Assembly (NCBI GenBank): GCA_005110395.1
Contig: DUDU01000059.1
Span: 5,877-69,876 of the forward strand
From: Candidatus Melainabacteria bacterium
GTDB lineage: Bacteria; Cyanobacteriota; Vampirovibrionia; Caenarcaniphilales; Caenarcanaceae
Direction of reading: 5' to 3'
Length of the DNA: 64,000 nt
Each line of letters begins with the position of its first letter. Position 1 is the first letter of the stretch. The position numbers and the translations under genes were made by a program. This document shows, piece by piece, positions 4,572-59,446 of the stretch. The notes below the pieces were generated by a model. The model worked only from the letters and a program-made list of their open reading frames with translations. It was not told the origin of the DNA and searched no databases.

Positions 4572-5573
4572 TTATTCACTTCCAATTAGAGGTAAATCAG
4601 CAAGCTTTAAATTTGCATTTATATTTTCAAAACCTTCACATAAACTCATCGCTATCAAAGTTGCATAAGGCTCTAAATGAATTGAATTGAAATTGTCATG
4701 GTTATTAATTGCATTGGCTCTTCTCAAAGATTCCATGTAGCGATGACGGGATTTCTTGTTTCCTTTTAGAACTACACAGAAATCAATTCCAAAACATCTC
4801 ATTACCATTTGTAGTAAAAGCCGAGACATCCTGCCATTAAAATTTACAAATGGATGAATTCGAACAAATTCATAACTTATCTGAGCTGCAATCATAAAAA
4901 TATCAACTTGATTGTCTGTAAGGCCTTTATGAATCAACAAATTGGCTCTCTTACAAAAAACCTTCATCGCCGATTCAATTAATTCAGGAGAAGGGAAATT
5001 CAAATCTAAACCCGTAATGAAGATTCCTTCATCTCTGAACTGTCCTTCTAAATGTCTATCATTTTCTTCTAATAATCCTCTCGATAAGCTTTTATGCAAA
5101 GATTTTATAATTTCTCGATCAAAGAGAAAAACCTCTTGTTTTGCCTTTATTTGATTAAGAAAATTTTCAACATGCAAAATACTTTGAATATATGCTCCCC
5201 AATGCTGCATAACTTCGTTATATTCTTTAAAAGATTTGCCAGATTGAGCAAATTGTAATTCTGAGTCATGGCTACCAAAAAGAGAAAAAAGCTCCCCGTC
5301 TCGCAAAAGCACAAAGTCTTCTGTTTTTATTTTTTCTCCATACTTTTTTTGAATAGTCTCTAATATTCTTTCAGTTTCACCAAAAGTCTTTGTTCCTGCA
5401 CCTTCAATTGTATTGCTTTCAAAAACAAGCTTGATAATAGAGAATTTTCCATATGAAATAATTTCGGTTTTTTGTTCAGGAGACAAAGAATCATAATCAG
5501 CTGAAGCTATGAATTTCTTAGCAGTTGAATGCCAATAGTCGTAATTTTTATACCAAGGTGGATTTCTCTGCAT
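4572..5573 (-). CDS. Fic/DOC family protein, class II (N-terminal inhibitory motif SNTIEG), non-canonical active site HPFVNFNGRMSR
   Basis: S/TxxxEG motif at ESNTIEG. The Fic loop HPFVNFNGRxxR differs from HPFx(D/E)GNGRxxR at the acidic and Gly positions. Confidence 0.75.
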   Translation of the reverse strand: MQRNPPWYKNYDYWHSTAKKFIASADYDSLSPEQKTEIISYGKFSIIKLVFESNTIEGAGTKTFGETERILETIQKKYGEKIKTEDFVLLRDGELFSLFGSHDSELQFAQSGKSFKEYNEVMQHWGAYIQSILHVENFLNQIKAKQEVFLFDREIIKSLHKSLSRGLLEENDRHLEGQFRDEGIFITGLDLNFPSPELIESAMKVFCKRANLLIHKGLTDNQVDIFMIAAQISYEFVRIHPFVNFNGRMSRLLLQMVMRCFGIDFCVVLKGNKKSRHRYMESLRRANAINNHDNFNSIHLEPYATLIAMSLCEGFENINANLKLADLPLIGSE

Positions 5574-8589: not shown

Positions 8590-9681
8590 TTGACCTTTAA
8601 TACCAAAACTTTTAATTCACAATTATCAAATACGCTTTTTTCTATTGGCGTCAGTCATAAGAGTAGTTCAATTGATATTAGGGAAAAGTTTTCTTTCAGT
8701 TCTTATGAGTTAAACAAAGCTTTAGATTATCTTTCAAAGCAAATTGGCCCATTGGTGATACTTAGTACTTGTAATCGAACTGAACTTTATTTTTCTTCAG
8801 AACAAAATTCTAGAGAAGCTTTGAAAGCCTTATCTGAATTTAAGAAGCTTGATTTGAGTTTTATTAGTGAGCACTCCTATTCTTTTGATTCTATTAATTG
8901 TGTTAGGCATTTATTCAAAGTGGCTGCAGGCTTAGAGAGCATGATTTTGGGGGAGGGTCAAATTTTAAATCAAGTCAAAACGGCTTATACCCAATCTCAA
9001 AACCACACAAATGGTACACTCAATCAGCTCTTTCAGCGTTCCTTGGCCGCAGGCAAAAAAGTACGCAGCAAAACTGAGATTTCTAGAGGTGCTATGTCAG
9101 TTCCTGCCGCATCTCTTCAGGTTATTCAAGAAAGTCTAAATCCTAAAGAGCTTAGTGAACAAAAAATTATGATTCTTGGCTCTGGAGAAGTAAGTCAGCT
9201 TTGTTTAGAGCATTTACACTCTCAGGGAGCTTCAGAGCACATCACATTAGTAAGCCGGTCGCCTGAAACTCATTCTCTGCAACTCACAAAATATCAATCA
9301 GTACAAAATATTAGCTATGCCAGTTTGCAGACTCACATTTGCGAGCAAGATGTAATTTTGGTTTGTACCAGTGCACCTCATTTTGTGATTGATATGGCTG
9401 AGCTTGAAGCGATCAAAAAACCAATGATAATTTGCGATATGTGTTTGCCTAGAAATGTAAACCCAGCAGTTGCTAATCTTCCACTAATAAAGTTAATCGA
9501 TTTAGATTATTTACAAAAAACTGTTTCGGCAAATGCATCTAAGCGCTCAGGTCAAATTAATCAGGCGGAAGAAATTATTGAAGAAGAAATCGAGAAATTT
9601 TTAGATTGGATGCAAAAGACTCAGACTTTTCAAAAACAAAAAAATCAAGAAAACGCACAAAGCATATTAACTAGAATCTAA
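8590..9681 (+). CDS. hemA: Glutamyl-tRNA reductase
   Basis: LFSIGVSHKSSSIDIREKFSF matches the HemA N-terminus; GSGEVS NADPH-binding region. The TTG start in the ORF track is uncertain. Confidence 0.85.
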   Translation: MTFNTKTFNSQLSNTLFSIGVSHKSSSIDIREKFSFSSYELNKALDYLSKQIGPLVILSTCNRTELYFSSEQNSREALKALSEFKKLDLSFISEHSYSFDSINCVRHLFKVAAGLESMILGEGQILNQVKTAYTQSQNHTNGTLNQLFQRSLAAGKKVRSKTEISRGAMSVPAASLQVIQESLNPKELSEQKIMILGSGEVSQLCLEHLHSQGASEHITLVSRSPETHSLQLTKYQSVQNISYASLQTHICEQDVILVCTSAPHFVIDMAELEAIKKPMIICDMCLPRNVNPAVANLPLIKLIDLDYLQKTVSANASKRSGQINQAEEIIEEEIEKFLDWMQKTQTFQKQKNQENAQSILTRI

Positions 9682-9689
9682 GCACTTAT

Positions 9690-10870
9690 TAATATGTTTG
9701 CACGCTCGACAAATCAGAGAGCGGAGCCTGTAGGCATAAAGTCCATTGGAGATAGTATTCACAAAATATTTTCGAATCAAAGAAAAACAATTAGAGAAAA
9801 TCTCTTTTTGGTTGTAACTTCTCTTATGCGATGTAAAAGCTGTCAAACTCCCCCTATCATTCAAGAGATGGGCAAAACTCAACGGCAACAACTTTAAAGC
9901 CAACGAAAATAGACTTGCTCGCTTCTTTGATTCCTCTGAATTCATGATTGAAGACAAAATTTGGAGAGAAAATATCCGAATGCTTTTTTCTTTGCTCTTC
10001 TGGATAGGCTATTTGAAAGCTGGCTCTAACCTATGTCTCAATGTTAATTTCACTAGCAAAACAGATAAATTTTTTAATTCTTTCTGCCTCTATTAAGTTT
10101 ATTGGACCCTCACTTCCTCTTTATTTTTCAATGAGACGTTACCCAGTAAAAAAGGGAATGATTGACCAGAAGAAAATGGAAAATGCTTTTTTGTTAGAAC
10201 TCAGTCGTCTTTTACCTCATGAAAAGTACAAGTACACAATTGTAGCTGATAGTGGTTTTGCGACCATCCACTTTATGGAGCAATGTCAGAAGCAAGGATT
10301 CAACTTTGTAATAAGGACTCCTGAAAAATGGAACATTGAAATTGATGACTGTAAAGGAAGTATGAAAGAACTAGAAAAAGAGAATAAAGATTGGAAAGTT
10401 AAGTTAAAGTCAGGAAAACTTGAGACTAGACTGGTAACATCATTTAATGAAGATGGACAAGGATGGTACATATTCACTGATTTGGAGGAAGCCTCATTTA
10501 ATAGGCTTATTGAAGAATACAAAGGAAGATTTCAGTGTGAAAAAATGTTTCAAGACGAAAAGAGTAGCGTCTTTGAGATAGAAAAGTCAAAGATAGAAAA
10601 ATATTCTCGTTTCAAGAGACTTTTGTTTTGTATGTATATAACGCAGGGCTTGATGATGTTTGTGGGGGACTGAATAGATGGAGAGGCAGAGGAAATCAGA
10701 AAAAAGTATCAACCTGCACATAAACATGATATCAGCATTTTTCAGATTGCAAAGCGGCTGCTGAACAGCTTTTTTAAAGAAGCAATAGTTTTTGTTGAGA
10801 AGCTATTAACTTTTTCCAGGAGTCAACCATATCGTTCTCCCTCAATCGTGTCGCAGCAAGGGGTTTGAAG
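9690..10870 (+). mobile_element. Degraded IS4-like insertion sequence: transposase broken into at least three frames, ends not identifiable
   Basis: Fragments ANENRLARFFDSS... (9899..10096), 10041..10673 with the DDE-region VADSGFATIHF...FVIRTP, and a C-terminal piece ...KKYQPAHKHDISIFQIAKRLL (10677..10868) in a third frame. Confidence 0.65.
10041..10673 (+). pseudogene. IS4-family DDE transposase, central fragment
   Basis: Lacks the N-terminal catalytic Asp region and the C-terminal YREK region in frame. Confidence 0.6.
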
Positions 10871-11282
10871 AGACTTACTACAAGTGCCCTAAATTAACAT
10901 AGCTAGACTTTTGAAATGCGTCCGTAAAAACAAATGAATGAGTTAATCCAAGCAATATAAATTCACAAATATTAAATTTAAGTTAAATCATTACTTAATG
11001 CACTGTTAATATTTGAGATTTTGTATTATTCTTATATTAAATAGAAGTTATATTAATAGCTTATAGTTTCTGGTATTTTAGCTGTATCTTATATAGGTTT
11101 CGCTTTTAAATATAAAAAATGCTTATTAGTTTCGAAATTTTCAATTTAGACAGTTTCAAGTCATTACAGTGCTTACTTAAGCTGATTTTAAAGAGTTTAA
11201 GGAATCCTTATGTTGATTTGTCCTGCATATTGCACAGTGAAGCTGTAAATAGTCAATTTGGAATAACGGCTTTTTGTGAGGT

Positions 11283-14200
11283 ATGCGCCTTATGAATTTA
11301 GCGTCTACTCAAACAATTCCTTCTTCTGGACAGTCAGCATCTTTAGCTGGACTGATCAATCAGATTAAGGATGGGGAAGCTAAGAAAAAACAGGCAGTAA
11401 AGAGTAAAGGCAAAAATAATATTGTTGTTCTGAATGGAAAAACAACTCAAAGAACAAGGAAGAAAAAAGATGATGAAGTTTCTCAAGGAGGATTAAGCCA
11501 GTCTAGTCAAAATGCGACTACTTCAATTCCCCCAACACAAAGTCCTAGCTCTAGCTTAGTTAATGCATTCGCAAATCCAGCCATTGCAACACCAACCACG
11601 ATTGCGATTTCTTCTTTATTGGCTTTAGCCCCAGTAGGCATTACAAAAATATCCAATCAATTTATAGATCGCAAATATAGTGAAGACTTTGCTCAAAAGC
11701 TACTTTCCAAGGAATTGTTCTCTGACAAAGAATTAGCTGAAATATATGACAAAGCAGTTTCTTTTCTATTAAATCCAGACAAAATCAAAATGTCTAAGAG
11801 ATTACGCTCCATGTATAACAACAAGAAACAGTTGGAAGATGGTGAAAAAGAATATAGAAAATTAGTTCTAGGTACTTGCCGTATTATCGTTTCTGGGAAA
11901 TTGCCAGTTCTGAATTGGGATGGGGATGGTTTCCAATTATTTAAGAATCAAAATTTTGTTAGCGCAACTGCTCCAACCGAAGCCAATGTAGACAGATCAA
12001 ATATTGCAACCACAGCTTTGTTTTTGCGGAGGTTTAAAAGCTTTATAAAACCATACAATCAAAGTACTGGTGCAAACGTTGACCCCAAAGATATTGCCCT
12101 TTATAAGTTCCTGACGATGCGAGCTGGGGCTTGGGATGGAAGAAGTTATAGACGTATACCACGTACTCCATTTTGGGAAAAAGCCGCTGATGGTTCATGG
12201 GCTGTTGGTATTCACAAAGAAGATGCTATTGATTCAACCATGGCAGAGTTAGGATTAGGTCCAGAATATGAACATCCTTTAGTTGAAGCAATTTCTTATC
12301 TTGGTTTGGGTGGAGTTGTGGATATTAAAAATGGAGGACAAATTCATTACAAAAAACCAGGTGATTCGAAAATCAATGGTGACAAAACTCAAGGAAGAAA
12401 ATTCATGAGAAGCGTTAATGAGACGTGGGAAAAATTGCAAAGTGTTTCTTCCGATCAATCAACGGTTAATCATCATTTAGAGAGACTTTCCAAATTATCT
12501 GGTGAAGAGTTTTTAAAGGAATATGAGAAATATGTCAAAGATGGTCAGTACAAAGATATTCATTTAGATGGCTTAATCGGTGAATTAGCTCTATTGACCA
12601 AAAAAGCTGGAATCAATGTTCTCGAAGTCAAAATGGTTCCCGAATACACTATTTCAGAAGAATGGGATCATTCGGGTGAAGAGCCGACGCTGAAAAATGA
12701 TTTTGGAATGCGTTACTACTTGAATGAAGCTCTTGATCTAAAGGCTGAAGGCAAAGAATGGAAAAGTTTTCTTCTGGATAAATTCAGGCCGCTTAGCAAT
12801 AATTCCTATGACAAAAGTCGAATTCCAGTAACTTCAAGATTATGGAATAAACTCACAAACTCAAATGATTTACATTCAATAGTCAAAGAATTTACATTAG
12901 GTGCAGTATTCAATTCGGTTTCTCACGCAATTGATGGGATTAATGCAATGGTTAATCCTGACTCACCAACCTATGATTATTACAAAGATTTACTGAGAAA
13001 TCTCTATAAAAAATATGCGAATGCACCTGAAGTTTTAGAGCATTTGAGTCAGCTTGGACAAGGATATGAAGCTCTGTTTGAGGAAATTAAAGATGGCAAG
13101 CAGGTGAAAAAGGGCATATTCAAAATGGCTGATAATGGAGTAAAAGCGCCATATATTGAATTTTCGGGATATTTTGCAAAAGATGCTTTTGAGAGAAGCC
13201 CTTGGGGAACAGTTGTTGCTGGTGGAGATAGTCAATCAACTGATTTAATAATGATTCTTGAAGCTATCGATCAAGCTTATGAAGAAAGAGAAAAAGCGAT
13301 AGAAAGCTTTCAAGCGTCCAAAGAGTTTTTGTCAGGAATAGGTAAATGGAAATATACGGCCGCAGAAGAAGCCAAAATGCTTCAAATAATTCAGGAAGAT
13401 GGCCTTGCTCTCGGTAAAAAAGCTCGAGGTCAAATAGATTTATTTAATGACAAGGCAAAAGAGCATATGCTCACTTGTGCTTTGAAAGATGGCGCATCTG
13501 CTGGATATGGATCTAGACCTTTTGCGGTTAAACAAAATGGCGATCAGTATGAATTAGTTGGACCTGAATATTCCGATCAATACAAAGGCAAAATAGTATC
13601 TAAAGAAGAGCTTTATAAGATATTTGAGAAAGTCGCTTCCCCTTGGTATGACGCTCGTATTAGTACTGCTCCAGATGTACATCAAAACAATCAGCAAATG
13701 GCAGAAGTCTGGCATTCACTTATGGGTGTGGATACAGATAAATTGAATACCAACATATTAGCTGAAGCAATTATTGGTAGAAACAATACAGATCGCAAAT
13801 GGGGCGCAAGCTTATTAATGCCTTATCACAAATGGCACGATCAATTAAGAGAAACCTTAGAAATCAAATCTCCAAAAGGGGTTTTTGATTTACCAACTAC
13901 TTTCATTCGTAGAGCCCCGGAAATCGGAGGAACTTTAGGACTAGCTGGAGCTGTCTTGGCCATGATTGGAGTTGCTGGTGAAGTTTATGACAATGTTGCG
14001 CATGATAATAAATTTGATCAGTCTTTCAGAGACATGGTTGCTAAAGCTTTCAGTTTATCCAATTTAGGATTAGCAATTACAACAGCTTTTGTAAAACCTA
14101 TTTTCTGGCCTTTCCAGGTTTTGGGTTCTCTTCTCGGTATTTCATCAGGCTTTTTACCTTCTGGCAGGCTTCAACAATACGTTGCTCTTGGTTCTATGGC

Positions 14201-15326
14201 TGCTTGGTTATTTGGCTCAGCCAGAGAAATGGGACATGATCAATGTACTTTTTTGGATACTCCCAAAGCACAGGATGAAGCTGAAAGAAAAGCTGAATTT
14301 ACAGTTGAGAATGATTTCTTACAATCAGGTTTTGAAGGTAAGAAAACAAATTATGATATTAAAGGGATTTTGACTCATCGTAATAGAGAGTCATCCAAAT
14401 TAATGGGCGACTTGGTTGAGAAAAAAGGTTGGTTGCCATTATTTGCTAAACCATTTGCTGATTTATCTTGGAATATAAATGCGTTTAAAGATGTTATTCG
14501 TGATCCCAAGTTGTTAAAGCTTGATAATTTGGTTTCGGTGGTTAATGGATTCAAATATGAACCAGCTCCTCACAGCATGCCACATCTGATAAATATGGGG
14601 GGCTGGATTTCAGTAGGCCTACTTGGTGCTACCGCTGCTATTCAGGCCATTAGCCATTTTACAAAGAAAGATCAAGAAGACGGAAAAACTTCAAGCACAG
14701 CTAATTCAGCAGAAGAAACACCTTCTGAATTACAAAAAATTTCTCAGAAAATGAAGGCAAGAGGAGTAAAGAATGGTAGAACTCCAGCTCCTAGTAGTCG
14801 TACATTATTAGATCCAAGAGTTACATCAAAACAAAAAATAGCAATTGAGAATTCTGGACTTGATAAAGCTGCTAGTGCGGTTGGTAGTTTGTCAGCTCTA
14901 ATACCTGCATTGGTATTTATTCTTCAAGGCTGGCTTCGCTCACAAAATGCAACTGGTAGTAGATTATTCTGGGCTACTGAAACTGGTGCGCAAAGATGGT
15001 ATAGGCCAGACGTTCTTGGAAAAGGTTTAATGATTTCAGCCGGATTACAAGCTGCTTCTGCTTTAGGTGTTACGGCTGGAGCCTTAGGTGCTTATGGGTC
15101 CAATACCAATGTAGTTGGGGTTGTTCAGAGTATGAATTATTTGGGTGCAGCTTTAGCATTGGCTTTTCAATCAATAGGTATCAAAGAAGGAGATGCAATT
15201 GGATTTATCAGAGACAGACTCTCTCTAATGCCCGATGGGAAAGGTGGATATAGACCAAATTCATATATGGGAGATCCACTAGAATGCCATGCGGTTTTGA
15301 GTGAAAGAAAAAGGGCAAATGCTTGA
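11283..15326 (+). CDS. Giant orphan protein (1347 aa): S/T/Q-rich N-terminus, ~900-aa soluble region, C-terminal ~450 aa with multiple glycine-zipper hydrophobic helices
   Basis: One long ORF. Hydrophobic segments GGTLGLAGAVLAMIGVAGEV, FWPFQVLGSLLGISSGF, GGWISVGLLGATAAIQAI and GLMISAGLQAASALGVTAGALGAYG. No motif I recognise. Confidence 0.7.
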   Translation: MRLMNLASTQTIPSSGQSASLAGLINQIKDGEAKKKQAVKSKGKNNIVVLNGKTTQRTRKKKDDEVSQGGLSQSSQNATTSIPPTQSPSSSLVNAFANPAIATPTTIAISSLLALAPVGITKISNQFIDRKYSEDFAQKLLSKELFSDKELAEIYDKAVSFLLNPDKIKMSKRLRSMYNNKKQLEDGEKEYRKLVLGTCRIIVSGKLPVLNWDGDGFQLFKNQNFVSATAPTEANVDRSNIATTALFLRRFKSFIKPYNQSTGANVDPKDIALYKFLTMRAGAWDGRSYRRIPRTPFWEKAADGSWAVGIHKEDAIDSTMAELGLGPEYEHPLVEAISYLGLGGVVDIKNGGQIHYKKPGDSKINGDKTQGRKFMRSVNETWEKLQSVSSDQSTVNHHLERLSKLSGEEFLKEYEKYVKDGQYKDIHLDGLIGELALLTKKAGINVLEVKMVPEYTISEEWDHSGEEPTLKNDFGMRYYLNEALDLKAEGKEWKSFLLDKFRPLSNNSYDKSRIPVTSRLWNKLTNSNDLHSIVKEFTLGAVFNSVSHAIDGINAMVNPDSPTYDYYKDLLRNLYKKYANAPEVLEHLSQLGQGYEALFEEIKDGKQVKKGIFKMADNGVKAPYIEFSGYFAKDAFERSPWGTVVAGGDSQSTDLIMILEAIDQAYEEREKAIESFQASKEFLSGIGKWKYTAAEEAKMLQIIQEDGLALGKKARGQIDLFNDKAKEHMLTCALKDGASAGYGSRPFAVKQNGDQYELVGPEYSDQYKGKIVSKEELYKIFEKVASPWYDARISTAPDVHQNNQQMAEVWHSLMGVDTDKLNTNILAEAIIGRNNTDRKWGASLLMPYHKWHDQLRETLEIKSPKGVFDLPTTFIRRAPEIGGTLGLAGAVLAMIGVAGEVYDNVAHDNKFDQSFRDMVAKAFSLSNLGLAITTAFVKPIFWPFQVLGSLLGISSGFLPSGRLQQYVALGSMAAWLFGSAREMGHDQCTFLDTPKAQDEAERKAEFTVENDFLQSGFEGKKTNYDIKGILTHRNRESSKLMGDLVEKKGWLPLFAKPFADLSWNINAFKDVIRDPKLLKLDNLVSVVNGFKYEPAPHSMPHLINMGGWISVGLLGATAAIQAISHFTKKDQEDGKTSSTANSAEETPSELQKISQKMKARGVKNGRTPAPSSRTLLDPRVTSKQKIAIENSGLDKAASAVGSLSALIPALVFILQGWLRSQNATGSRLFWATETGAQRWYRPDVLGKGLMISAGLQAASALGVTAGALGAYGSNTNVVGVVQSMNYLGAALALAFQSIGIKEGDAIGFIRDRLSLMPDGKGGYRPNSYMGDPLECHAVLSERKRANA

Positions 15327-15380: not shown

Positions 15381-15968
15381 CTATTTCAACAAAAAACTTT
15401 CAATTGTTTCCAGTACACCTGGCTTTAGCCAAAATAAGAGCAAATAGGCGAAGCAACCCAATGAGACTGGTAGTGCATAAGGCTGAATGCGACTTCTTTT
15501 AGTATCTTTTACATAAGTCCAATAATTTCCCAGCTTTTGAGAAGTCCTGCCGGCTGAGTTGAAATATATAAAGGCGGCTCTTAATTCGTTTAATAAAAAA
15601 GGAATTATTAAAAGGGCATTCAATAAGCTACCCAAAACAAAGACCCAGAGAAAATTTTTGATGCCTAGTATCAGCCCAAGTATTGCCAATAATTTCACGT
15701 CGCCAGCACCACCGAGTCTAAGCACAAATGGAATAAACAGAATCGCAAATCCAATTAGACATGCCAATAACCCATCCCAAAGATAATGCGGATTTGCAAA
15801 AACTAAAACAATTCGCAAAATCAAGGCTAAAACAAAAAATATCAAATTGTAAAGATTAGGAATCTTGCGATATTTCAAGTCAAATATAGCTGCACCTAGA
15901 GAAAATGCCACAGCAAGCCCAAGAAGAGAAAAATTAATAATAATCGTCTGGCTTTCATTGAAATTCAT
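15381..15968 (-). CDS. A24-family prepilin peptidase, short CpaA/TadV-like form with no N-terminal domain
   Basis: Catalytic Asp contexts FDLKYRKIPN and GGAGDVKLLAILG; polytopic membrane protein of 195 aa. Confidence 0.75.
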   Translation of the reverse strand: MNFNESQTIIINFSLLGLAVAFSLGAAIFDLKYRKIPNLYNLIFFVLALILRIVLVFANPHYLWDGLLACLIGFAILFIPFVLRLGGAGDVKLLAILGLILGIKNFLWVFVLGSLLNALLIIPFLLNELRAAFIYFNSAGRTSQKLGNYWTYVKDTKRSRIQPYALPVSLGCFAYLLLFWLKPGVLETIESFLLK

Positions 15969-22047: not shown

Positions 22048-24714
22048 ATGTCAGAGATCAATTCATCTGAGAAATTCCCATCAACCGAAGAGAGAAAGAA
22101 ATATACTCCTGTTCTCAGGCAATACCTTGATGAGCGAGCCAAAGTTGGTGATGATGCTATTTTACTTTTTCGACTTGGCGATTTTTATGAATCTTTTTTC
22201 TATGATGCTGAAGTACTTGCAAAAGAATTAGAAATTGTTTTGACTGCACGCTCTGATTCTGCGCACCCAAATGGAAAAGTACCAATGGCTGGTATTCCTT
22301 TTCGCACAGCTGATGGTTATATAGCCAAACTCCTCAAAGCAGGAATCAAAGTTGCCATTTGCGAACAAGTCGGTGAAGTAACTGGCAAAGGGCCTATGCA
22401 AAGAGCGTTGACCCGTATACTGACACCTGGAACTCTCACAGAGTCAGAATATTTATCAGGCGAAAAAGCAAATTATTTAGCAGCAATATTTCCAGACAGT
22501 GACGATTGTTGGGGTTTAGCTTTTATTGATATTTCTACCGCTCAAATTAGAATAGCAGAGCTGTCAGAGAAACAATTGAGAATTGAATTGAATCGAATTG
22601 CAGCTTCAGAAATATTGGTTTCATCAACCAGAGTAAGAGATCAAGCAGGTATTTATATTGAGCAATTATTATTACCAAAAGAAGTAAATAAGTCAGATTA
22701 CTCAATCACAGGCCGAGCTCATAATTCTTTTGATTTGGAAGTCGCTAAAAGTAAAATAAAGAAACAATTTGGTGAACATTCCTTGAGTGGATTTGGCATC
22801 GTAAATTTCAAACCTGGATTGAGAGCTTTGGGAGCTATTCTGGAATATTTGGAATTTACTTATCCTGAATCAATCAAGAGCCTGAGACAAATTCAAATTT
22901 ACGAAACTGGCAAATATCTCAAGCTGGATGAGCAGACCATAAAAAATTTGGAAATATTCGAAACACTCAAAAACCGCACAAAGAAAGGAAGCTTGTTTGG
23001 TTTGCTTGAAAGTGAAATCACTACCAAAATGGGCGCGCGTCTTTTGCGAGAATGGCTATCACTTCCGCTGCTCAGAGTGAATGAGATTAAGCAAAGACAA
23101 TTAGCCATAAAGCAATTACTAAGTTCAAATCAACTTAGAAGCAAAATAAAAGAAGCTCTCAATGGAGTTTCAGATCTAGAACGCTTAGCCGTTAAGCTAG
23201 ACTCGGGTAAGCTCAATCCACGAGAATTAGGCTGGATTAAAAATTCATTACTCAAATTACCATTTATTGGGTCGCTTTCTGCTGAATTGGTTTCACCCCC
23301 CAGCCTGACTGGAAAGTACCCCCCAACCCCCTTAACAGGGGGAGAAACAATCAGTAACACAATTGATGAATTAGTAAACGAAGCAGCTAAATTATTTGCT
23401 ATCAACTTAAATCCCGATTTAATCAGAAAAGCCGAAGAATTAAATAAAGCTTTGCTAGATGAATTGCCAGTTATCAGCTCAGAAGGAGGCATTATCCAAT
23501 CTGGCTATAGCTTTAAAATGGACGAAATCAAAGCTTTGGTTGAACACAATGAAGCCTGGTTGCAAAAATATGAAAATACCGAAAGAGAAAAAACAGGGAT
23601 CAGAGCGCTGAAAGTTGCCTTCAATAAAGCCGCGGGTTTTTATATTGAAATCAGCAAAGCCAACAAAGACCTAGTACCAGCAGACTATAAAATAAAGCAA
23701 AATCTGACAAATATTGACCGCTACTTAACGCCTGAATTGAAAGAATATGAAGCGAAGTTTTTGGCGGCGGAGTCACAATTGCAAGGAATTGAATATGAGA
23801 TTTTTTGCTTTCTGAGAGATACTCTTGCCGCACATGCTGAAGAAATTAGAGAGATAAGCAAAAGCATAGCGAGTATAGATTGCTTGATTGCGCTTGCTGA
23901 AATTGCACAAGCTAATAAATATATTTGTCCTGAAATCAATGATTCAAATGAATTGAGAATTGAAAATGGTCGCCATCCAGTTATAGAGCAAGCTATGCCG
24001 AATGGCAGATTTGTTGGTAATGATTTGGAGCTTATTAGTGTTAATCCTAATGAAGAAGTCAGTGAGACACCGCAAGTAATGATCTTGACTGGGCCGAATA
24101 TGTCAGGCAAGTCGACTTTCATGAAGCAAAATGCATTATTAGTTTTACTTGCGCAAATCGGCAGTTATATACCCGCAAATTCTGCCACAATTGGAATAGT
24201 CGATCGCATATTCACACGTATTAGCTCATCCGATGATTTGAGTCAAGGACAATCAACTTTTATGGTTGAAATGACAGAAACCGCTTATTTGCTAAACAAT
24301 ATGACCGATCGAAGTTTGATTTTATTAGATGAAATTGGTCGTGGAACAAGCACTTATGACGGGGTAGCAATTGCTTGGGCTGTGGTGGAATATTTAGCAA
24401 AGAAAGGGCCACGTACAATTTTTGCAACGCATTATCACGAACTGAATGGCCTAACTGATTTATTCAAGCAAATTGTGAATTATCAGGTTTCGGTTTATGA
24501 AAGTGATGAAGAATTGACTTTTCTCTACAAGGTAATTCCTGGAGGAGCCGATCGTAGCTATGGAATTCAGGTTGCAAAAATGGCTGGTCTTCCAACAACG
24601 GTTTTGAATAGAGCGCAAGGTATTATGGCTCAAATCAATGCTAGGGAAATTCCAGCCAAAAGGCGTTCACTCATTAATGAAAGTATTGAACAAACCCGCT
24701 TAAATTTGACTTAA
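22048..24714 (+). CDS. mutS: DNA mismatch repair protein MutS
   Basis: N-terminal TPVLRQYLD...FRLGDFYE mismatch-binding domain; Walker A GPNMSGKSTFM; STFMVEMTE. Confidence 0.95.
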   Translation: MSEINSSEKFPSTEERKKYTPVLRQYLDERAKVGDDAILLFRLGDFYESFFYDAEVLAKELEIVLTARSDSAHPNGKVPMAGIPFRTADGYIAKLLKAGIKVAICEQVGEVTGKGPMQRALTRILTPGTLTESEYLSGEKANYLAAIFPDSDDCWGLAFIDISTAQIRIAELSEKQLRIELNRIAASEILVSSTRVRDQAGIYIEQLLLPKEVNKSDYSITGRAHNSFDLEVAKSKIKKQFGEHSLSGFGIVNFKPGLRALGAILEYLEFTYPESIKSLRQIQIYETGKYLKLDEQTIKNLEIFETLKNRTKKGSLFGLLESEITTKMGARLLREWLSLPLLRVNEIKQRQLAIKQLLSSNQLRSKIKEALNGVSDLERLAVKLDSGKLNPRELGWIKNSLLKLPFIGSLSAELVSPPSLTGKYPPTPLTGGETISNTIDELVNEAAKLFAINLNPDLIRKAEELNKALLDELPVISSEGGIIQSGYSFKMDEIKALVEHNEAWLQKYENTEREKTGIRALKVAFNKAAGFYIEISKANKDLVPADYKIKQNLTNIDRYLTPELKEYEAKFLAAESQLQGIEYEIFCFLRDTLAAHAEEIREISKSIASIDCLIALAEIAQANKYICPEINDSNELRIENGRHPVIEQAMPNGRFVGNDLELISVNPNEEVSETPQVMILTGPNMSGKSTFMKQNALLVLLAQIGSYIPANSATIGIVDRIFTRISSSDDLSQGQSTFMVEMTETAYLLNNMTDRSLILLDEIGRGTSTYDGVAIAWAVVEYLAKKGPRTIFATHYHELNGLTDLFKQIVNYQVSVYESDEELTFLYKVIPGGADRSYGIQVAKMAGLPTTVLNRAQGIMAQINAREIPAKRRSLINESIEQTRLNLT

Positions 24715-27833: not shown

Positions 27834-28691
27834 ATGCAAAAGAAATCATTTATCTCTTTAATTAGTGTTCTTACATTATGCTTGACATTGCCTATATGCT
27901 CAGATGAAGCTTCAGAATGGGGATATGCAAAGTCGACAGGTTCAGACAATTGGTCCAAAATCAAAACTGAATATGAGCAATGCAAACAAGGTCATCATCA
28001 ATCCCCAGTAAATATTAAAAGCTTTGTATATAAGAAAGATAATAATTTCAATATTCAATTTAATTACAAGTCTTCCCATGAAGTCATTCTCAATAATGGA
28101 CATACAGTAGAGCTTTTATATGATGAAGGTAGCTATATAACTTTTCAAGGAAGCCAATACCGATTGATTCAATTTCATTTTCATACTCCTTCTGAGCATT
28201 TAGTCAAAGGAAAGCATTATCCTCTCGAAATGCATTTAGTTCATAAAAATATAGACAATTCATCTTATTTGGTTATAGCGGTTTTCTTTGAAAGAGGTAA
28301 AGAAGATAAATTCTTGAATGAATTTATTCATGATGTACCAAAAAAGTTAGACAAAAAAGAATTTGCAAAAAACATTAGCGTAGTAGATCTTTTAACTGAT
28401 ATTGAGACTGAATCAAGCCTGCAAAAGGATTTACTAAAGCCAAAACAAAATCAATCACTTACAAAAATTAATATCAGTAGAATAATTCAAGCAAAAGCTA
28501 AATTCTGGACATATGAAGGTTCACTTACAACCCCACCATGTACCGAATCCGTGAGATGGGTTATTCTAGAACATCCCTTAACCGCTTCTGCTGAACAAAT
28601 AGAAAAGCTTAGAAAAGCAGAAGGTATAAATGCTAGACATACACAAAAGCTTTATGAGAGAAAAGTTGAAGAATTCATTAATGCCGTTTGA
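27834..28691 (+). CDS. Alpha-class carbonic anhydrase, secreted
   Basis: Signal peptide; WGY...QSPVNI; zinc-ligand His in HFHTPSEH and EMHLVH. Confidence 0.85.
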   Translation: MQKKSFISLISVLTLCLTLPICSDEASEWGYAKSTGSDNWSKIKTEYEQCKQGHHQSPVNIKSFVYKKDNNFNIQFNYKSSHEVILNNGHTVELLYDEGSYITFQGSQYRLIQFHFHTPSEHLVKGKHYPLEMHLVHKNIDNSSYLVIAVFFERGKEDKFLNEFIHDVPKKLDKKEFAKNISVVDLLTDIETESSLQKDLLKPKQNQSLTKINISRIIQAKAKFWTYEGSLTTPPCTESVRWVILEHPLTASAEQIEKLRKAEGINARHTQKLYERKVEEFINAV

Positions 28692-29296: not shown

Positions 29297-30883
29297 ATGC
29301 CTTTCAATCATTTCGCCTGGAATAATTACAAACAGACAAATAGATATACAGAAATTTGTAATTTATTTTCTTCTGGTTCTATTAATACTTTCAATCTAGA
29401 GAGGGAAATCTTTGATGCCTATTTCAATAATTTCAAGGAAATACTAAGTGATGGACCTGCTATTTCCAGCATTGATGATGCTTTTGGCTTTTATTTGAAT
29501 TCTGTAATGGAATTTGAAGACATTACTCTTTCTGATGAATATGAAGAAAAATTTGGTGCTGAAATAGGATCAGAAGAAGGCATTGAATGGACTCAACAAA
29601 AATGGTTAGAAGAACGTAAAAAAGAAAATAAAAATGAAAGACTTTATATCAGGATCAATGGGAATATTGCCGAAATCAGTTCTGCTTTGTTTAAATCAGA
29701 ACCTGAATACTTTCTTCCATATTTCTACAATCCATTTATCAAGTTAGACTTTTTGCAAAAAGAGAAATTCGATTTAAGTTTTGATTTATTTCAGAAGATT
29801 TGTAATGAGTTTGACATCAATCTCTTGGAGACACCAGCGAAAACTGAATTAATTGATAGGGCTTCTTATTACATGGAAATTTGCTGCGATTTATATGATT
29901 TTCGAATTGAGCATAAATTAACACCAATTGAAATGTGTGCTTTTTTGTATGATTTTGCTCCTAAATTTTGTGAAGAAACTAGGGATAAAGATTTACCATC
30001 ACCTTTGCGAGTATGGCTTATTAAAGGAGCTCACGGTGGGGAACAGGATTTTAATTGGCTTGAACAAAATACAGGAAGCAATACTCGTACTTATTGGAAT
30101 GGAAATATAAGAACAAAAAGAGGAGATATACTCCTTATGTATTGTGTTTCTCCATATTCTTATATTCATTCGATTTGGAGAGCAAACTGCGATGGCTTCG
30201 TCAATCCATTCTTTTATTTTCATAATCAAATTGAAATAACTAATGGAATTAAAGTACCAACAATTTCCTTTCTAGAATTACAAAAAACTGAGTTGATTTC
30301 TGTTAAGCCTGAAATGAAGGCAAAGCTCCAAACTAATACTGGAGGAATTGAATTCAGCAATTCAGAATATTGTGAATTACAAAATCTTCTTCAAAAAAAA
30401 GGATTTGATACTTCTTGTTTGGAACAACTTCCATTCTCTGATATAGCTCTTGAAATGAATATCAATGATGAATTGGATGTGGAAGACAAGCTATTAGAAC
30501 CATTATTAAAAGAGTTGGGGTTTACAGAAAGAGACTGGATTAGGCAGCACTCAATAAGAATAGGAACAAGAGAAAGAATTATTCCTGATTATATTTTTGG
30601 TTTAAAAGTAAATAAAGAAAATGAAATAGCAAAAATGATTATAGAGGCAAAGTTTAGATACCAAAAAGCCACATTGAAAGAACAGGAAATGCATTTCAAA
30701 CAAGCTCGTTCATATGCCTTAAACCTTCAATCATCAAAATTATTAATTGCAGATAAAGATGGGTTAGTTTGGTTTTACAAAGTGAACAATGATTTCGATA
30801 AAAATAATGTTGAGGTCTTTTCTTGGCCTGCCTTAAAATCTCCAGAAACTTTTCAAAAATTAAAAATATTGGTGAATGAATAA
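29297..30883 (+). CDS. Three-domain protein: unknown N-terminal domain, PUA-like (EVE-like) domain, C-terminal HsdR-N-type PD-(D/E)xK nuclease domain; putative modification-dependent (type IV-like) restriction endonuclease
   Basis: C-terminus LLEPLLKELGFTERDWIRQHSI...IIPDYIFGL...KMIIEAKF...QARSYA fits the HSDR_N/HSDR_N_2 PD..ExK pattern. Middle VWLIKGAHGG..W...TYWNGNIRTKRGDILLMYCVSP..IHSIW resembles EVE/PUA-like domains. Confidence 0.6.
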   Translation: MPFNHFAWNNYKQTNRYTEICNLFSSGSINTFNLEREIFDAYFNNFKEILSDGPAISSIDDAFGFYLNSVMEFEDITLSDEYEEKFGAEIGSEEGIEWTQQKWLEERKKENKNERLYIRINGNIAEISSALFKSEPEYFLPYFYNPFIKLDFLQKEKFDLSFDLFQKICNEFDINLLETPAKTELIDRASYYMEICCDLYDFRIEHKLTPIEMCAFLYDFAPKFCEETRDKDLPSPLRVWLIKGAHGGEQDFNWLEQNTGSNTRTYWNGNIRTKRGDILLMYCVSPYSYIHSIWRANCDGFVNPFFYFHNQIEITNGIKVPTISFLELQKTELISVKPEMKAKLQTNTGGIEFSNSEYCELQNLLQKKGFDTSCLEQLPFSDIALEMNINDELDVEDKLLEPLLKELGFTERDWIRQHSIRIGTRERIIPDYIFGLKVNKENEIAKMIIEAKFRYQKATLKEQEMHFKQARSYALNLQSSKLLIADKDGLVWFYKVNNDFDKNNVEVFSWPALKSPETFQKLKILVNE

Positions 30884-35532: not shown

Positions 35533-36366
35533 GTGAAAACCAAATATTCATTTATTTTCAATTTGTTTCTTTTCAGTGCATTGAGTTTGTCTTTTGCTTC
35601 TGCTATTCCAGTTCTCTCTAAGCAAGATCCGCTCATTGATCAAATTGTGCGAAGTATGTCTCAAAACAATACTGGGTGCCAGCCAAATTATTATTTTTCT
35701 GTTGACGAAATTCAGTCGAAAGATGGCAAATACGCTTATTATGAAGTTTTACAGCGCATGCTCAATCCGCAACAGGCTGCTAGCAAAGATTGGTTTTCTA
35801 GCCAAAAAGATTTAAATTTGATGCCAGTAAATGCTTGCATTGTGAGAGGGAATAAAGACTTTTCACGAAAGAAAAATGCTGAATTTCTACATTCATTAGC
35901 TGTTTCCAAAATTGTGAATCTTGATTATGTTTCAGACAGCCTCAATCGTGGAAAAACCTCTTTTCAATATACTTTTTTGCCTATCAATCCAAATGCTTAT
36001 CCAAAAGATGACAATATCAGGTCAATAAAACTAGCGCTAGAACAAATGCAATCAGCAACTCCTGAATCAAGACTTTATATAAGCGATTTGACAGGGAAAT
36101 ATCAAGTAGGCTTAGTAGTAGCACTTTATCAATTTTTGGGAGATTATTCTCTGGATGCAGTTGATACTTGTGATTCAATTGGTAAAGATCGAGACAAGCC
36201 TTATCAGCAAATGAATGCAATCGGAAATAAAGGTTTATTAAATTACGATTTTCCAGATAATTTCAGGAAATTTTATTTAGACTTTGCACATTCAGTTTGT
36301 AATCACGAAACTGATAAGCTTTTGGCAATTCCTATGGGCACAAAATGCAAACCTAAATTGAAATAA
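35533..36366 (+). CDS. Secreted hypothetical protein (277 aa)
   Basis: Signal peptide LFSALSLSFASA; several Cys. Confidence 0.5.
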   Translation: MKTKYSFIFNLFLFSALSLSFASAIPVLSKQDPLIDQIVRSMSQNNTGCQPNYYFSVDEIQSKDGKYAYYEVLQRMLNPQQAASKDWFSSQKDLNLMPVNACIVRGNKDFSRKKNAEFLHSLAVSKIVNLDYVSDSLNRGKTSFQYTFLPINPNAYPKDDNIRSIKLALEQMQSATPESRLYISDLTGKYQVGLVVALYQFLGDYSLDAVDTCDSIGKDRDKPYQQMNAIGNKGLLNYDFPDNFRKFYLDFAHSVCNHETDKLLAIPMGTKCKPKLK

Positions 36367-48750: not shown

Positions 48751-50148
48751 TTACTTTGCTTGAGCCGCTTTGGTCTGAGATAAGTTGGCTTGAGAAAGAG
48801 AAACTCTGGAAAGAAAAGATTTATCGAGCGGATCATACAGAGCTAAATTGTAATCACGCAAAGAAAATTGTTTAGAAGAAACTGGAAACATCAGAGTAAT
48901 TGTACTGCTCTGGCCCGAGGCGATTTTTTGAAGCAAATTAGTGCCAGAAGTTCTCAAATCAGCAATCATTGGATCTCCACCATCAAGAGGCACCAAAAGC
49001 AAATCACAAGGATAAATTGAAGAATTAGTTTGATTATTTACTTTGACTTTCACTGATAAAAGATTTTCATATTCTTCAGATTCTGATACTTTAGCTTCCA
49101 TCAATTCAAGGTTTAAACCAATTAATTGATTATCTAAATTTGCTTGCTTGTTTGCCAATTCAGCCTCTAAAAGGGCATCATCATCAATATTAAAATTGTC
49201 ACCAAAGGTAATTGCACTTTTTTCACCTGGAAAGAAAGTTTTGGTGTCTCCTTGTCTACGAACAGCCCCGATTAACCCTAGAGATACACCAACCCCTGCT
49301 CCAACTGCAACACTGAGACCATTGGTATAAACGGCTGCTAATGGAGACCAACGAAGAGAATTGTATGTCCCCCACAAAGCGCCAAGTGTTGCCAACTTTG
49401 CATCATAAACAACCAATTTGGCAGCCTCTTTTCCTTTAAAGCTTTCCGTAGTTAATTCGGCTTTAATTGGGAATTCTTTGCCAGATTTTAGAACTAAAGT
49501 ATCAAAAGCAACTTTTACAAAACCAGCTCTTCCCGCTTTGCGGCTTTGTTTGACATCAACTACATGTCCTTTTATGCGGCTCCCTCTGAGTGATTCTAAA
49601 CTTGGACTGCCTGAGCCTGGCTTGACTAAGACTTTGGCTTGAACACCATCACCAATTGAGCTTAATTCAGAGGATAAAAGGGTCATTAAAGAAATTGAAA
49701 TTTTTTCTTTTTTATCAATGACTTTTGTGCTTGAGCCTTTGAGAATCATATTAGACTCAGATTGTTCTCCATTTACTTGAACATTTTCACCTTTAATAAT
49801 TTCTTCTAATGGAGAAGTTGCATTGATTTCGCTACTGATTTCATTTTGCCCAGAACTCGCTGCAGTTTTGCTTGCTGCGGAATTATTTCCTAAAGCAGTT
49901 GAAAGATCTGCTTGGAGTTCAGAACTTTTTGATTCAACTGATTGTTTCGTTTCAACTTGCCCTTTTGAAGAAGAATCTATTTCATCTGCCAATAGGCCTA
50001 CACTTGGAAGAATAGAGGAAAGAAATATTGAAGGAAAGAAATATATGAATAGAAATCCAAAAGAAACAAGTGAATTAACTCGAATTCGTTTAGTCTCTGA
50101 ATCTAAGTTGAAATTGGTTAGAAATTTCTTTTTTGACATCTTTGACAA
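48751..50148 (-). CDS. Hypothetical secreted/anchored protein (465 aa), S-rich
   Basis: N-terminal hydrophobic segment; no motif recognised. Confidence 0.5.
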   Translation of the reverse strand: MSKMSKKKFLTNFNLDSETKRIRVNSLVSFGFLFIYFFPSIFLSSILPSVGLLADEIDSSSKGQVETKQSVESKSSELQADLSTALGNNSAASKTAASSGQNEISSEINATSPLEEIIKGENVQVNGEQSESNMILKGSSTKVIDKKEKISISLMTLLSSELSSIGDGVQAKVLVKPGSGSPSLESLRGSRIKGHVVDVKQSRKAGRAGFVKVAFDTLVLKSGKEFPIKAELTTESFKGKEAAKLVVYDAKLATLGALWGTYNSLRWSPLAAVYTNGLSVAVGAGVGVSLGLIGAVRRQGDTKTFFPGEKSAITFGDNFNIDDDALLEAELANKQANLDNQLIGLNLELMEAKVSESEEYENLLSVKVKVNNQTNSSIYPCDLLLVPLDGGDPMIADLRTSGTNLLQKIASGQSSTITLMFPVSSKQFSLRDYNLALYDPLDKSFLSRVSLSQANLSQTKAAQAK

Positions 50149-59181: not shown

Positions 59182-59446
59182 TGATTTGGCTGGAGCTGAA
59201 GCTTAGTAATTTAAATTAGTTAACTAAATTCTAACTAGATGAGTAAATCAAAACAAGGTCTTTATGAACAACCAACAAAGGCTCATCTGTGCAATATCAC
59301 TAGTTCTTCATTTCTTGAGAAGGCAGAGTGCCTTATATTGCACAAAGACACGCTTATAGAAAATCTTTGAGCAGTTATAGTGACATCTCAGTAAATTTTC
59401 AACATTGGTTTTCAATAGAAAGATTTAGTGTAATTACCATTGATGA

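What the first reader, a model, noticed from the sequence alone, without database searches (positions are those of the whole stretch)
9690..15326. Degraded IS4-like element adjacent to a 1347-aa orphan protein with a glycine-zipper-rich C-terminal membrane domain
The IS remnant is split into at least three frames and lacks ends. Immediately downstream is a single 4-kb ORF with no motifs I recognise. Its last ~450 aa contain at least five hydrophobic helices full of GxxxG/AxxxG zippers, the kind of segment seen in pore-forming toxins, T6SS/Cdi-type membrane-targeting effectors or host-membrane-inserted effectors. Association with a mobile-element scar suggests horizontal acquisition.
Basis: inference. 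Interest (0 to 1): 0.55.

Follow-up and report, generated by a model that had tools for sequence, protein, structure and literature searches.

The report
Membrane protein with hidden phosphatase core
The 4-kb gene is not an orphan toxin brought in by a transposon: it is a native, conserved gene of a small family found only in Caenarcaniphilales (non-photosynthetic relatives of cyanobacteria), and it probably joins a very divergent HAD-type phosphatase domain to a new eight-helix membrane domain.

Summary
Both features exist. Window 9694-10870 is a decayed IS4-family transposase gene with two frameshifts, one in-frame stop and no detectable ends. Window 11292-15326 (alternative start 11283) is one intact ORF of 1344/1347 aa.

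The ORF is not an orphan. An exhaustive HMMER search found seven distant homologue clusters (22-44% identity, same architecture). All taxonomically labelled ones come from Caenarcaniphilales/Melainabacteria, each sits among different housekeeping genes, and none lies next to this IS.

The ORF looks native and constrained. Its codon usage is the closest to the window average of 21 genes, and dN/dS is 0.17 against a ~95% strain that carries the same, further decayed IS relic. So the IS is an incidental old neighbour, not evidence of transfer.

An AlphaFold model of aa 125-880 (pTM 0.80) matches nothing significantly. Its top PDB hits are nonetheless all capped HAD phosphatases. The family-invariant residues reproduce the four HAD motifs at the ends of predicted strands: D213xD215G, T278, K633, G648-D649-S650...D654.

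The C-terminal ~470 aa form about eight Gly/Ala-rich helices with an invariant GxxxGxxxG and no known relative.

Best reading (about 0.5): a membrane-embedded HAD-like phosphohydrolase of unknown substrate. The toxin/effector reading is unsupported but not excluded.

The parts
9694..10870 (+). Decayed IS4-family insertion sequence. The transposase reading frame is nearly full length but is split over three frames and has an in-frame stop at 10674. No terminal inverted repeats were found.
   Evidence: Pfam PF01609 and NCBIfam NF033591. Three-frame translation. tblastn of intact 340-382 aa relatives maps aa 8-375 to 9736-10844. DNA is 74% identical to L022 over 9804-10850. No flanking inverted repeats.
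10871..11291 (+). AT-rich spacer that presumably holds the promoter and ribosome-binding site (GAGG at 11278-11281) of the large gene.
   Evidence: Sequence read directly. The promoter scan was not above the shuffled expectation, so the promoter position is inferred, not shown.
11292..15326 (+). Large gene of 1344 aa, or 1347 aa from the alternative ATG at 11283. All residue numbers in this report use the 1347-aa frame.
   Evidence: ORF list. Identical protein MFN5539598.1 seen on 9 contigs. dN/dS 0.17. Native codon usage.
11283..11570 (+). aa 1-96: low-complexity, basic tail (14 K+R, 5 D+E) that varies between strains and has an NNIV...KKK-DD patch shared by homologues.
   Evidence: Alignments and composition. 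The disordered state is inferred.
11571..11648 (+). aa 97-122: conserved hydrophobic segment rich in small residues (NPxxATPxxxAIS...). It may be a ninth membrane helix.
   Evidence: Kyte-Doolittle mean 1.64. Conserved across the family. Not modelled.
11655..13787 (+). aa 125-835: soluble domain, read here as a HAD-type Rossmannoid core plus a giant cap.
   Evidence: AlphaFold2 model with pLDDT 78.9 and pTM 0.80. The top Foldseek hits in the PDB are all capped HAD phosphatases, but the best E-value is only 0.2.
11901..11933 (+). HAD motif I: predicted strand 207-213 ending in D213-x-D215-G216-[T/F/H/C].
   Evidence: D213, D215 and G216 are invariant in 8 family members. Strand E83-89 of the model has pLDDT about 90. 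This motif is the top hhalign local match to motif I of E. coli Cof-type enzymes (P=0.019).
12102..12122 (+). HAD motif II: predicted strand 274-278 ending in T278 (Ser in some members) followed by M-R. Compare S/T-G-R in Cof-type enzymes.
   Evidence: Alignment, model strand E150-154 and the E. coli alignment.
12150..13151 (+). aa 290-623: very large inserted 'cap' (about 330 aa, against about 100 aa in known C2 caps) with its own invariant motifs (GFGG..KNGG, E448xK450, H548, Y578, NG618-619).
   Evidence: Alignments. No significant Pfam or PDB sequence match.
13152..13181 (+). HAD motif III region: strand Y624-x-E626 followed by invariant K633. Compare 'lEi.p.g..K' in Cof/OtsB.
   Evidence: Model strand E500-505.
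13206..13244 (+). HAD motif IV: strand 642-648 followed by G648-D649-S650-x-x-x-D654. Members P0018 and P0021 have the canonical GDSxSD spacing.
   Evidence: Model strand E518-524. Top hhalign local match to Cof motif IV (P=0.19).
13275..13532 (+). About aa 665-750: segment hypervariable between strains (dS about 1, against 0.02 in the membrane domain). It looks like a recombination import.
13890..15182 (+). aa 870-1300: membrane domain of about eight Gly/Ala/Ser-rich helices. A ~110-aa helical/hairpin insert follows helix 4 and a ~65-aa basic disordered loop follows helix 5.
   Evidence: Hydropathy. AlphaFold2 model with pLDDT 67.9 and pTM 0.73. Foldseek against the PDB gave only noise. No internal repeat.
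14124..14150 (+). Invariant glycine zipper G948-xxx-G952-xxx-G956 inside the best-conserved stretch of the whole protein (PFQxLGSxxGIxSGFLPxGxxQQ).
   Evidence: Alignment A3 invariants.
15381..15968 (-). Convergent neighbour: a short A24-family (prepilin/preflagellin-type) peptidase. It is not a conserved partner of the family.
   Evidence: Pfam PF01478 at 1.7e-13. Absent next to homologues.

Best explanation
The ORF encodes a native, selectively maintained integral membrane protein. It belongs to a small family known so far only from Caenarcaniphilales (Vampirovibrionia/Melainabacteria).

Its order of parts is: a basic, probably disordered tail; one hydrophobic helix rich in small residues; a ~700-aa soluble domain; and a ~430-aa bundle of about eight Gly/Ala-rich helices.

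The soluble domain is most likely a very divergent haloacid-dehalogenase (HAD) superfamily phosphoryl-transfer domain of the C2-capped kind. D213 would be the nucleophile, D215 the general acid/base, T278 and K633 would bind phosphate, and D649/D654 would bind Mg2+. An unusually large ~330-aa cap would supply substrate specificity.

The proposed mechanism (inferred) is Mg2+-dependent hydrolysis or transfer of a phosphate from a substrate that is membrane-bound, or that is passed to or received from the protein's own membrane domain. The invariant glycine zipper and the conserved polar residues in that domain (QQ964-965, N1104, N1222, R1227) suggest a channel, transporter or oligomerisation module rather than a passive anchor.

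The adjacent IS4 element is an old, neutrally decaying pseudogene with no functional or evolutionary link to the gene.
For: SHOWN
- The gene is real and constrained. Identical or >=94% identical copies occur on contigs from many metagenomes. dN/dS is 0.17 overall, 0.09 for aa 121-660.
- It is native: it has the lowest synonymous-codon distance of 21 window genes.
- It has a family: 7 homologue clusters at 22-44% identity share one architecture. Labelled members are Candidatus Caenarcaniphilales/Caenarcanales.
- The contexts all differ and consist of housekeeping genes.

SUPPORTING THE HAD READING
- The model has pTM 0.80.
- The top 19 Foldseek hits in the PDB are all capped HAD phosphatases (ISN1 from two species, then a PMM); further PMMs and a trehalose-6-P phosphatase follow lower in the list. 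The same model searched against viral structures gave heterogeneous noise.
- About 10 of the roughly 32 invariant residues in a 1300-aa alignment fall in the four HAD motifs. They lie in the canonical order and at the C-terminal ends of predicted strands.
- The best hhalign local matches to an E. coli Cof/YbiV/YbjI/OtsB profile are motif I to motif I and motif IV to motif IV.
- The composite pattern D.DG...K.{10,45}GD.{3,4}D hit only the four E. coli HAD-IIB enzymes and six family members among 258 ORFs.
- The layout, with the motif III lysine directly after the cap, matches PfISN1 (PMC7320144).

MEMBRANE DOMAIN.
Against: - No sequence method reaches significance for HAD. Pfam and NCBIfam are silent for all members. 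HMMER profiles against PDB sequences are negative. hhalign probabilities are only 1-2%.
- The best Foldseek E-value is 0.2, with TM-scores of 0.1-0.2.
- The model rests on only 9 sequences.
- The residue after DxDG is F, H or C in some members instead of T/V.
- The K633-to-G648 spacing is short in this protein.
- Topology is unresolved: positive-inside counts were A 85 against B 61 and inconsistent among members.
- Substrate and membrane-domain function are pure inference. No conserved gene neighbour gives a pathway clue.
Confidence: 0.5

Rival explanations
1. It is a lineage-specific integral membrane protein of unknown, non-HAD function. On this view the HAD-like motifs and the weak structural hits are coincidental or a modelling artefact.
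For: All profile-based sequence tests for HAD are negative. Foldseek E-values are 0.2 or worse with poor TM-scores. The alignment used for modelling is shallow.
Against: All four motifs coincide with family-invariant residues, lie in canonical order and sit at predicted strand ends. The top structural hits all come from one superfamily. The composite motif gave no false positives among about 248 unrelated ORFs.
Confidence: 0.27
2. It is a secreted, membrane-inserting effector or toxin. On this view the protein leaves the cell, its marginally hydrophobic Gly/Ala helices insert into a target membrane (prey, host or competitor), and the enzymatic domain acts there.
For: Most helices are only moderately hydrophobic (19-residue means 1.3-1.6). 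The N-terminus is long and low-complexity and carries no signal peptide. The family is restricted to one lineage. One segment differs strongly between strains. Relatives of this order include a known predator, Vampirovibrio (my own knowledge, not tested here).
Against: No toxin, trafficking or defence-system domain was found. No conserved small downstream gene could serve as an immunity protein, and no secretion system is adjacent in seven loci or in the 64-kb window. The C-terminal membrane part is the most conserved region (dS 0.02, near-invariant), which is the opposite of polymorphic toxins. The gene is single-copy among housekeeping genes and has native codon usage.
Confidence: 0.12
3. 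The gene is cargo recently brought in by the neighbouring IS4 element (horizontal acquisition).
For: Only physical proximity: the gene starts about 410 nt downstream of the IS relic.
Against: Composition and codon usage are native. Homologues in other genomes of the order lack this IS. A single IS4 copy without ends cannot mobilise a 4-kb gene. The relic predates the split of strains that differ by about 5%.
Confidence: 0.03

Closest known systems
C2-capped HAD-superfamily phosphatases (Cof/YbiV/YbjI/OtsB type, phosphomannomutase, IMP-specific nucleotidase ISN1)
   Same: The order and chemistry of four motifs match: DxDG at the end of strand 1, S/T at the end of strand 2, Lys directly after the cap, and GDxxxD at the end of strand 4. 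Asp at position +2 is typical of phosphatases and mutases. The cap is inserted between motif II and motif III. These enzymes are the best structural hits.
   Different: There is no significant sequence or profile similarity. The cap is about 330 aa rather than about 100 aa and carries its own invariant motifs. Extra helices precede strand 1. The domain is fused to a ~430-aa polytopic membrane domain. The whole protein is about five times larger.
P-type ATPases
   Same: They combine a HAD-fold phosphorylation domain, with a large insert, and a multi-helix membrane domain in one polypeptide (established knowledge).
   Different: P-type ATPases have DKTGT (Thr at +2), a nucleotide-binding insert and an actuator domain, and their HAD domain is embedded between membrane helices. 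Here the motif is DxDG (Asp at +2), no P-type signature was detected by Pfam, and nearly all membrane helices follow the soluble domain.
Membrane-anchored HAD lipid phosphatases such as E. coli PgpC (recalled from memory, not tested here)
   Same: A HAD phosphatase tethered to the membrane and acting on a membrane-bound phospho-substrate is a precedent for the proposed mechanism.
   Different: Those enzymes are small and have a single anchor helix. No homology to them was tested or shown.
Glycine-zipper channel and pore proteins (VacA, MscL/MscS-type helices; concept recalled from memory)
   Same: The family has an invariant GxxxGxxxG in a membrane helix and many small-xxx-small repeats.
   Different: There is no sequence or fold match to any of them. 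The motif alone does not define a family.
IS4-family insertion sequences (for the upstream relic)
   Same: The relic encodes a DDE transposase of the IS4 family and is up to 75% identical to metagenomic copies found on ~1.2-1.6 kb contigs.
   Different: The frame is broken by two frameshifts and a stop, the likely first catalytic Asp position reads Asn (NVNFT), and no inverted repeats remain.

Membership tests
HAD superfamily (C2-capped phosphatases) | Motif I, DxDx(T/V), at the C-terminal end of the first core strand | tested here: met
   D213-x-D215-G216 is invariant in 8 members. T follows in 4 of 8 and F, H or C in the others. Predicted strand 207-213 has pLDDT about 90.
HAD superfamily (C2-capped phosphatases) | Motif II, a conserved Ser/Thr at the end of the second strand | tested here: met
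   T278 or S278 is present in all 8 members and ends predicted strand 274-278. M-R follows in 7 of 8.
HAD superfamily (C2-capped phosphatases) | Motif III Lys/Arg after the cap, then motif IV acidic signature (GDxxxD/DD) at the end of strand 4 | tested here: met
   K633 is invariant. G648-D649-S650 and D654 are invariant and follow strand 642-648. The composite pattern is specific in a 258-ORF control.
HAD superfamily (C2-capped phosphatases) | Rossmannoid fold recognisable by structure comparison | tested here: inconclusive
HAD superfamily (C2-capped phosphatases) | Significant match to a HAD sequence profile (Pfam Hydrolase_3, S6PP, Trehalose_PPase, PMM, ISN1 and similar) | tested here: not met
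   There is no Pfam or NCBIfam hit for any member or sub-region. HMMER against PDB sequences is negative. hhalign probability is 2.5% or less.
HAD superfamily (C2-capped phosphatases) | Mg2+-dependent phosphoryl transfer through an aspartyl-phosphate intermediate | not testable with these tools
   This requires an enzyme assay.
IS4-family insertion sequence | DDE transposase of the IS4 family | tested here: met
   PF01609 at 4e-10, NF033591 at 2e-22, and 82 homologues.
IS4-family insertion sequence | Intact transposase frame and terminal inverted repeats (a functional element) | tested here: not met
   Two frameshifts and a stop. No terminal inverted repeats.
Polymorphic toxins / CDI / T6SS effectors | N-terminal trafficking domain (PAAR, Rhs, VgrG, TPS, LXG and similar) | tested here: not met
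   No Pfam, NCBIfam or PADLOC hit.
Polymorphic toxins / CDI / T6SS effectors | Variable C-terminal toxin module followed by a cognate immunity gene | tested here: not met
   The C-terminus is the most conserved part. The downstream genes differ in all seven loci with sequence beyond the gene's stop: window A24 peptidase, L010 unknown, L011 BNR, L012 peptidase A8, L013 unknown, L014 NUDIX, L017 unknown.
P-type ATPases | DKTGT phosphorylation motif plus actuator and nucleotide-binding domains | tested here: not met
   The motif is DxDG, and no E1-E2_ATPase, Cation_ATPase or related Pfam hit was found.

The most novel reading that the evidence does not exclude
The family may be a previously unrecognised kind of membrane machine. 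In it, a HAD-type aspartyl-phosphate domain with a giant substrate-selecting cap would be mechanically or chemically coupled to an oligomeric glycine-zipper channel or transporter. That would mean dephosphorylation-coupled export or import (a vectorial phosphatase), evolved independently of P-type ATPases and confined to one lineage of non-photosynthetic cyanobacterial relatives.
Probability: 0.1. Interest if true: 0.8.

Novelty: new variant of a known kind. Interest (0 to 1): 0.45.

Why it matters
If the HAD assignment holds, this would be, as far as I know, the first C2-capped HAD phosphatase core built into a giant polytopic membrane protein. Its cap is about three times the usual size, and the domain is invisible to every standard domain library. 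The family would give a marker and an experimentally approachable enzyme for Caenarcaniphilales, an uncultured order whose lifestyle is essentially unknown. It also shows how motif and structure evidence can rescue 'orphan' giant proteins. For the scan itself, the practical lesson is that lying next to a dead IS was a red herring.

Tried and rejected
- **Word-indexed homologue search.** The search with the single protein, and again with the family alignment, returned only the self cluster. The exhaustive HMMER search was needed to find homologues.
- **Sequence searches against the PDB.** The full protein, the motif I/II region, the motif III/IV region and the cap gave nothing significant. A weak match of the cap to the N-terminus of oligoendopeptidase F (E=0.024 over 55 aa) was judged to be chance.
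- **Domain libraries.** Pfam, NCBIfam and PADLOC gave nothing for the protein, its homologues or sub-regions. Sporadic sub-threshold hits (DSPc in P0015, RabGAP-TBC in P0016, UPF0231 in P0018) are not conserved across members and were rejected.
- **hhalign against an E. coli HAD-IIB profile.** Not significant.
- **Foldseek.** The membrane-domain model hit only generic helical bundles such as GPCRs, with TM-scores of 0.14-0.25. The soluble model against viral structures gave noise.
- **Collection scans.** The metagenome scan with a degenerate pattern found no confirmed relative. The GTDB scan found two loci.
- **Internal duplication of the membrane domain.** None found.
- **Positive-inside topology count.** Inconclusive.
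- **Promoter and terminator scans around the gene.** No better than shuffled sequence.
- **Conserved synteny.** None.
- **T229 as motif II.** Rejected in favour of T278, because T229 lies in the low-confidence loop after strand 1 (a flap-like position) whereas T278 ends the next predicted strand.
Full report
**Source and setting**

The window matches a contig of a Candidatus Melainabacteria metagenome-assembled genome (GCA_046304515.1, contig JBKCEA010000171). The large protein is MFN5539598.1. The window has about 35% GC.

It is filled with housekeeping genes: proB, exbBD, hemA, thrS, mutS, lgt, metE, argJ, dxr, sucD and rpe. It also holds a Type ISP restriction enzyme and many ORFs with no domain hit. 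Apart from ExbB/ExbD and a short A24-family peptidase, nothing resembling a secretion apparatus lies in the 64 kb.

**The IS relic**

ORF 10041-10673 is a DDE transposase fragment of the IS4 family. Translating 9690-10900 in three frames and mapping intact 340-382 aa relatives shows that almost the whole transposase gene survives, covering aa 8-375. It is spread over three frames and has an additional in-frame stop at 10674. Intact relatives, up to 75% identical, sit on 1.2-1.6 kb contigs, as multicopy IS elements typically do.

No terminal inverted repeats bracket the relic. Its first ATG lies 13 nt after the hemA stop.

The same relic sits at the same place on every contig of this population. 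In a ~95% strain (L018) it is further decayed, with only a 116-aa DDE fragment called. The relic plus spacer is 95.6% identical between the two strains. It is old and evolving neutrally.

**The large ORF is a real, native gene**

The ORF is uninterrupted from 11283 to 15326. The probable start is ATG 11292, which lies 10 nt downstream of a GAGG and agrees with the database annotation and the homologues.

- GC is 0.380 and GC3 is 0.26. The synonymous-codon distance to the other window genes is 0.072, the lowest of 21 genes.
- Against L018, dN/dS is 0.17 overall and 0.09 for aa 121-660.
- Divergence is mosaic: dS is about 0.98 in codons 661-750 but 0.02 in the membrane domain. This points to recombination within the population.

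Nothing indicates recent transfer.

**Not an orphan**

The word-indexed search found only the self cluster. Exhaustive HMMER over 1.84 billion representative proteins found seven further clusters at 22-44% identity and 1301-1673 aa (one is a partial sequence). They share the architecture end to end.

The labelled members are Candidatus Caenarcaniphilales (MDX1921447.1) and Candidatus Caenarcanales JTS-AC348. One 4-kb contig is binned as Synechococcales.

The eight loci with sequence share no neighbour with each other or with the window. Flanking genes are housekeeping genes such as groEL, murC-like, ribosomal proteins, NUDIX and folB. None has this IS beside the gene.

**Architecture**

- aa 1-96: a basic, low-complexity, strain-variable tail.
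- aa 97-122: a conserved hydrophobic segment rich in small residues.
- aa 125-835: a soluble domain.
- aa 870-1300: about eight Gly/Ala/Ser-rich helices, with a ~110-aa insert after helix 4 and a ~65-aa basic loop after helix 5.
- A ~45-aa charged tail at the end.

The best-conserved stretch of the whole protein lies in the membrane domain: PFQxLGSxxGIxSGFLPxGxxQQ. It contains the invariant G948xxxG952xxxG956. The membrane-domain model (pTM 0.73) has no meaningful structural neighbour and no internal repeat.

**The soluble domain: a cryptic HAD core**

AlphaFold2 with nine sequences gave a surprisingly confident model, with pLDDT 78.9 and pTM 0.80. Foldseek against the PDB found nothing significant. 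Even so, the top 19 hits are all HAD-superfamily phosphatases with inserted caps: IMP-nucleotidase ISN1 from Plasmodium and yeast, then a phosphomannomutase. Further phosphomannomutases and a trehalose-6-phosphate phosphatase follow lower in the list. A control search of the same model against viral structures returned heterogeneous noise.

Only about 32 residues are invariant across the family. About ten of them reproduce the four HAD motifs, in canonical order and at the ends of predicted strands:

| Motif | Residues | Position in the model |
|---|---|---|
| I | D213-x-D215-G216 | ends strand 207-213 |
| II | T/S278 | ends strand 274-278 |
| III | Y624-x-E626 ... K633 | after strand 624-629 |
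| IV | G648-D649-S650 ... D654 | after strand 642-648 |

This mirrors the E. coli Cof/YbiV/YbjI/OtsB pattern DxDGT ... (S/T)G(R/N) ... lEi.p.g..K ... GDxxND. It also mirrors PfISN1, where the motif III lysine immediately follows the C2 cap (PMC7320144).

hhalign against the E. coli profile is not significant. Its best local matches are nevertheless motif I to motif I (P=0.019) and motif IV to motif IV (P=0.19). A composite regular expression hit only the four E. coli HAD-IIB enzymes and six family members among 258 ORFs.

**Mechanism**

Shown: a conserved, constrained membrane protein whose invariant residues fit a phosphatase-type HAD site (Asp at +2).

Inferred: Mg2+-dependent phosphoryl transfer on a substrate selected by the giant cap, coupled in some way to the protein's own membrane domain. 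The conserved glycine zipper and intramembrane polar residues suggest a channel, transporter or oligomerisation role for that domain.

The side of the membrane on which the soluble domain lies is unresolved. The substrate is unknown, and no conserved neighbour gives a pathway hint.

**Rivals**

- A non-HAD protein of unknown function (0.27).
- A secreted membrane-inserting effector (0.12). There is no trafficking domain, immunity gene or secretion system, and the C-terminus is the most conserved part. The moderate hydrophobicity, the tail without a signal peptide and the lineage restriction keep this rival alive.
- IS-mediated acquisition (0.03).

**Verdict**

The finding is a new, very divergent and architecturally unusual variant of a known superfamily, confined to an uncultured order. 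Interest is moderate (0.45). It would be much higher if the HAD domain proves to be functionally coupled to transport.

Noticed in passing
window 8590-9681 (hemA) and 9682-9694: The glutamyl-tRNA reductase gene gives only 363 aa. It matches TIGR01035 up to model position 338 of 416 and only 21 of 99 positions of the dimerisation domain. Its stop lies 13 nt before the IS relic's first ATG, so the IS insertion may have clipped the hemA 3' end. Yet dN is 0 between strains, so the short form appears functional.
   Followed up: partly
window about 13275-13532 (codons ~661-750 of the large ORF): Divergence from the ~95% strain L018 is mosaic. dS is about 0.98 and dN 0.16 in this 90-codon block, against dS 0.02 in the membrane domain. 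Neighbouring genes also vary: hemA dS 0.06, the A24 peptidase 0.18, the radical-SAM gene 0.04. This suggests recombination imports. Why this particular block is affected is unexplained.
   Followed up: partly
L018 14729-16782, compared with window 22048-24714 (mutS): In the ~95% strain, mutS is called as two pieces: 384 aa with no Pfam hit and 311 aa with MutS_V only. The window copy is intact at 888 aa. This could be a mutator lineage or an assembly error.
   Followed up: no
window 40972-45903 (-): A complete single-polypeptide Type ISP restriction-modification enzyme of 1643 aa, with Mrr_cat_2, ResIII/helicase, ISP coupler, N6 methylase and Type_ISP_C domains.
   Followed up: no
window 4572-5573 (-) and 27834-28691 (+): A Fic-domain protein and a eukaryotic-type (alpha) carbonic anhydrase sit among the housekeeping genes.
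   Followed up: no
window 15381-15968 (-): A short (195 aa) A24-family peptidase lacks the methyltransferase domain and resembles the FlaK/TadV type. It converges on the large ORF with a 54-nt gap. It is not found next to any homologue, so it is probably unrelated.
   Followed up: partly
window 35533-36366 (+) and L011 8902-9711: A 277-aa ORF with no Pfam hit has a homologue (32% identity, 1e-45) that lies immediately upstream of family member P0021 in L011. In the window it is about 20 kb away from the large gene. This is probably coincidence.
   Followed up: partly
L012 1-5746: Another giant gene (product of 2130 aa or more, running off the contig) lies about 4 kb upstream of family member P0019. 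It has no detectable similarity to the window protein.
   Followed up: no
window 29297-30883, 48751-50148, 56654-57595, 57670-59181, 59447-61696: Five further ORFs of 313-749 aa have no Pfam hit at E <= 1e-3 or 1e-4. The region 58000-60000 is also the most GC-rich part of the window (0.41-0.43).
   Followed up: no
window 10041-10673 and protein P0023: The IS4 transposase fragment gives a sub-threshold Pfam Hydrolase_3 (HAD) hit (E=7.6e-4, below cutoff), and its closest relative carries the same precomputed hit. This is unrelated to the HAD reading of the large ORF and should not be confused with it.
   Followed up: no
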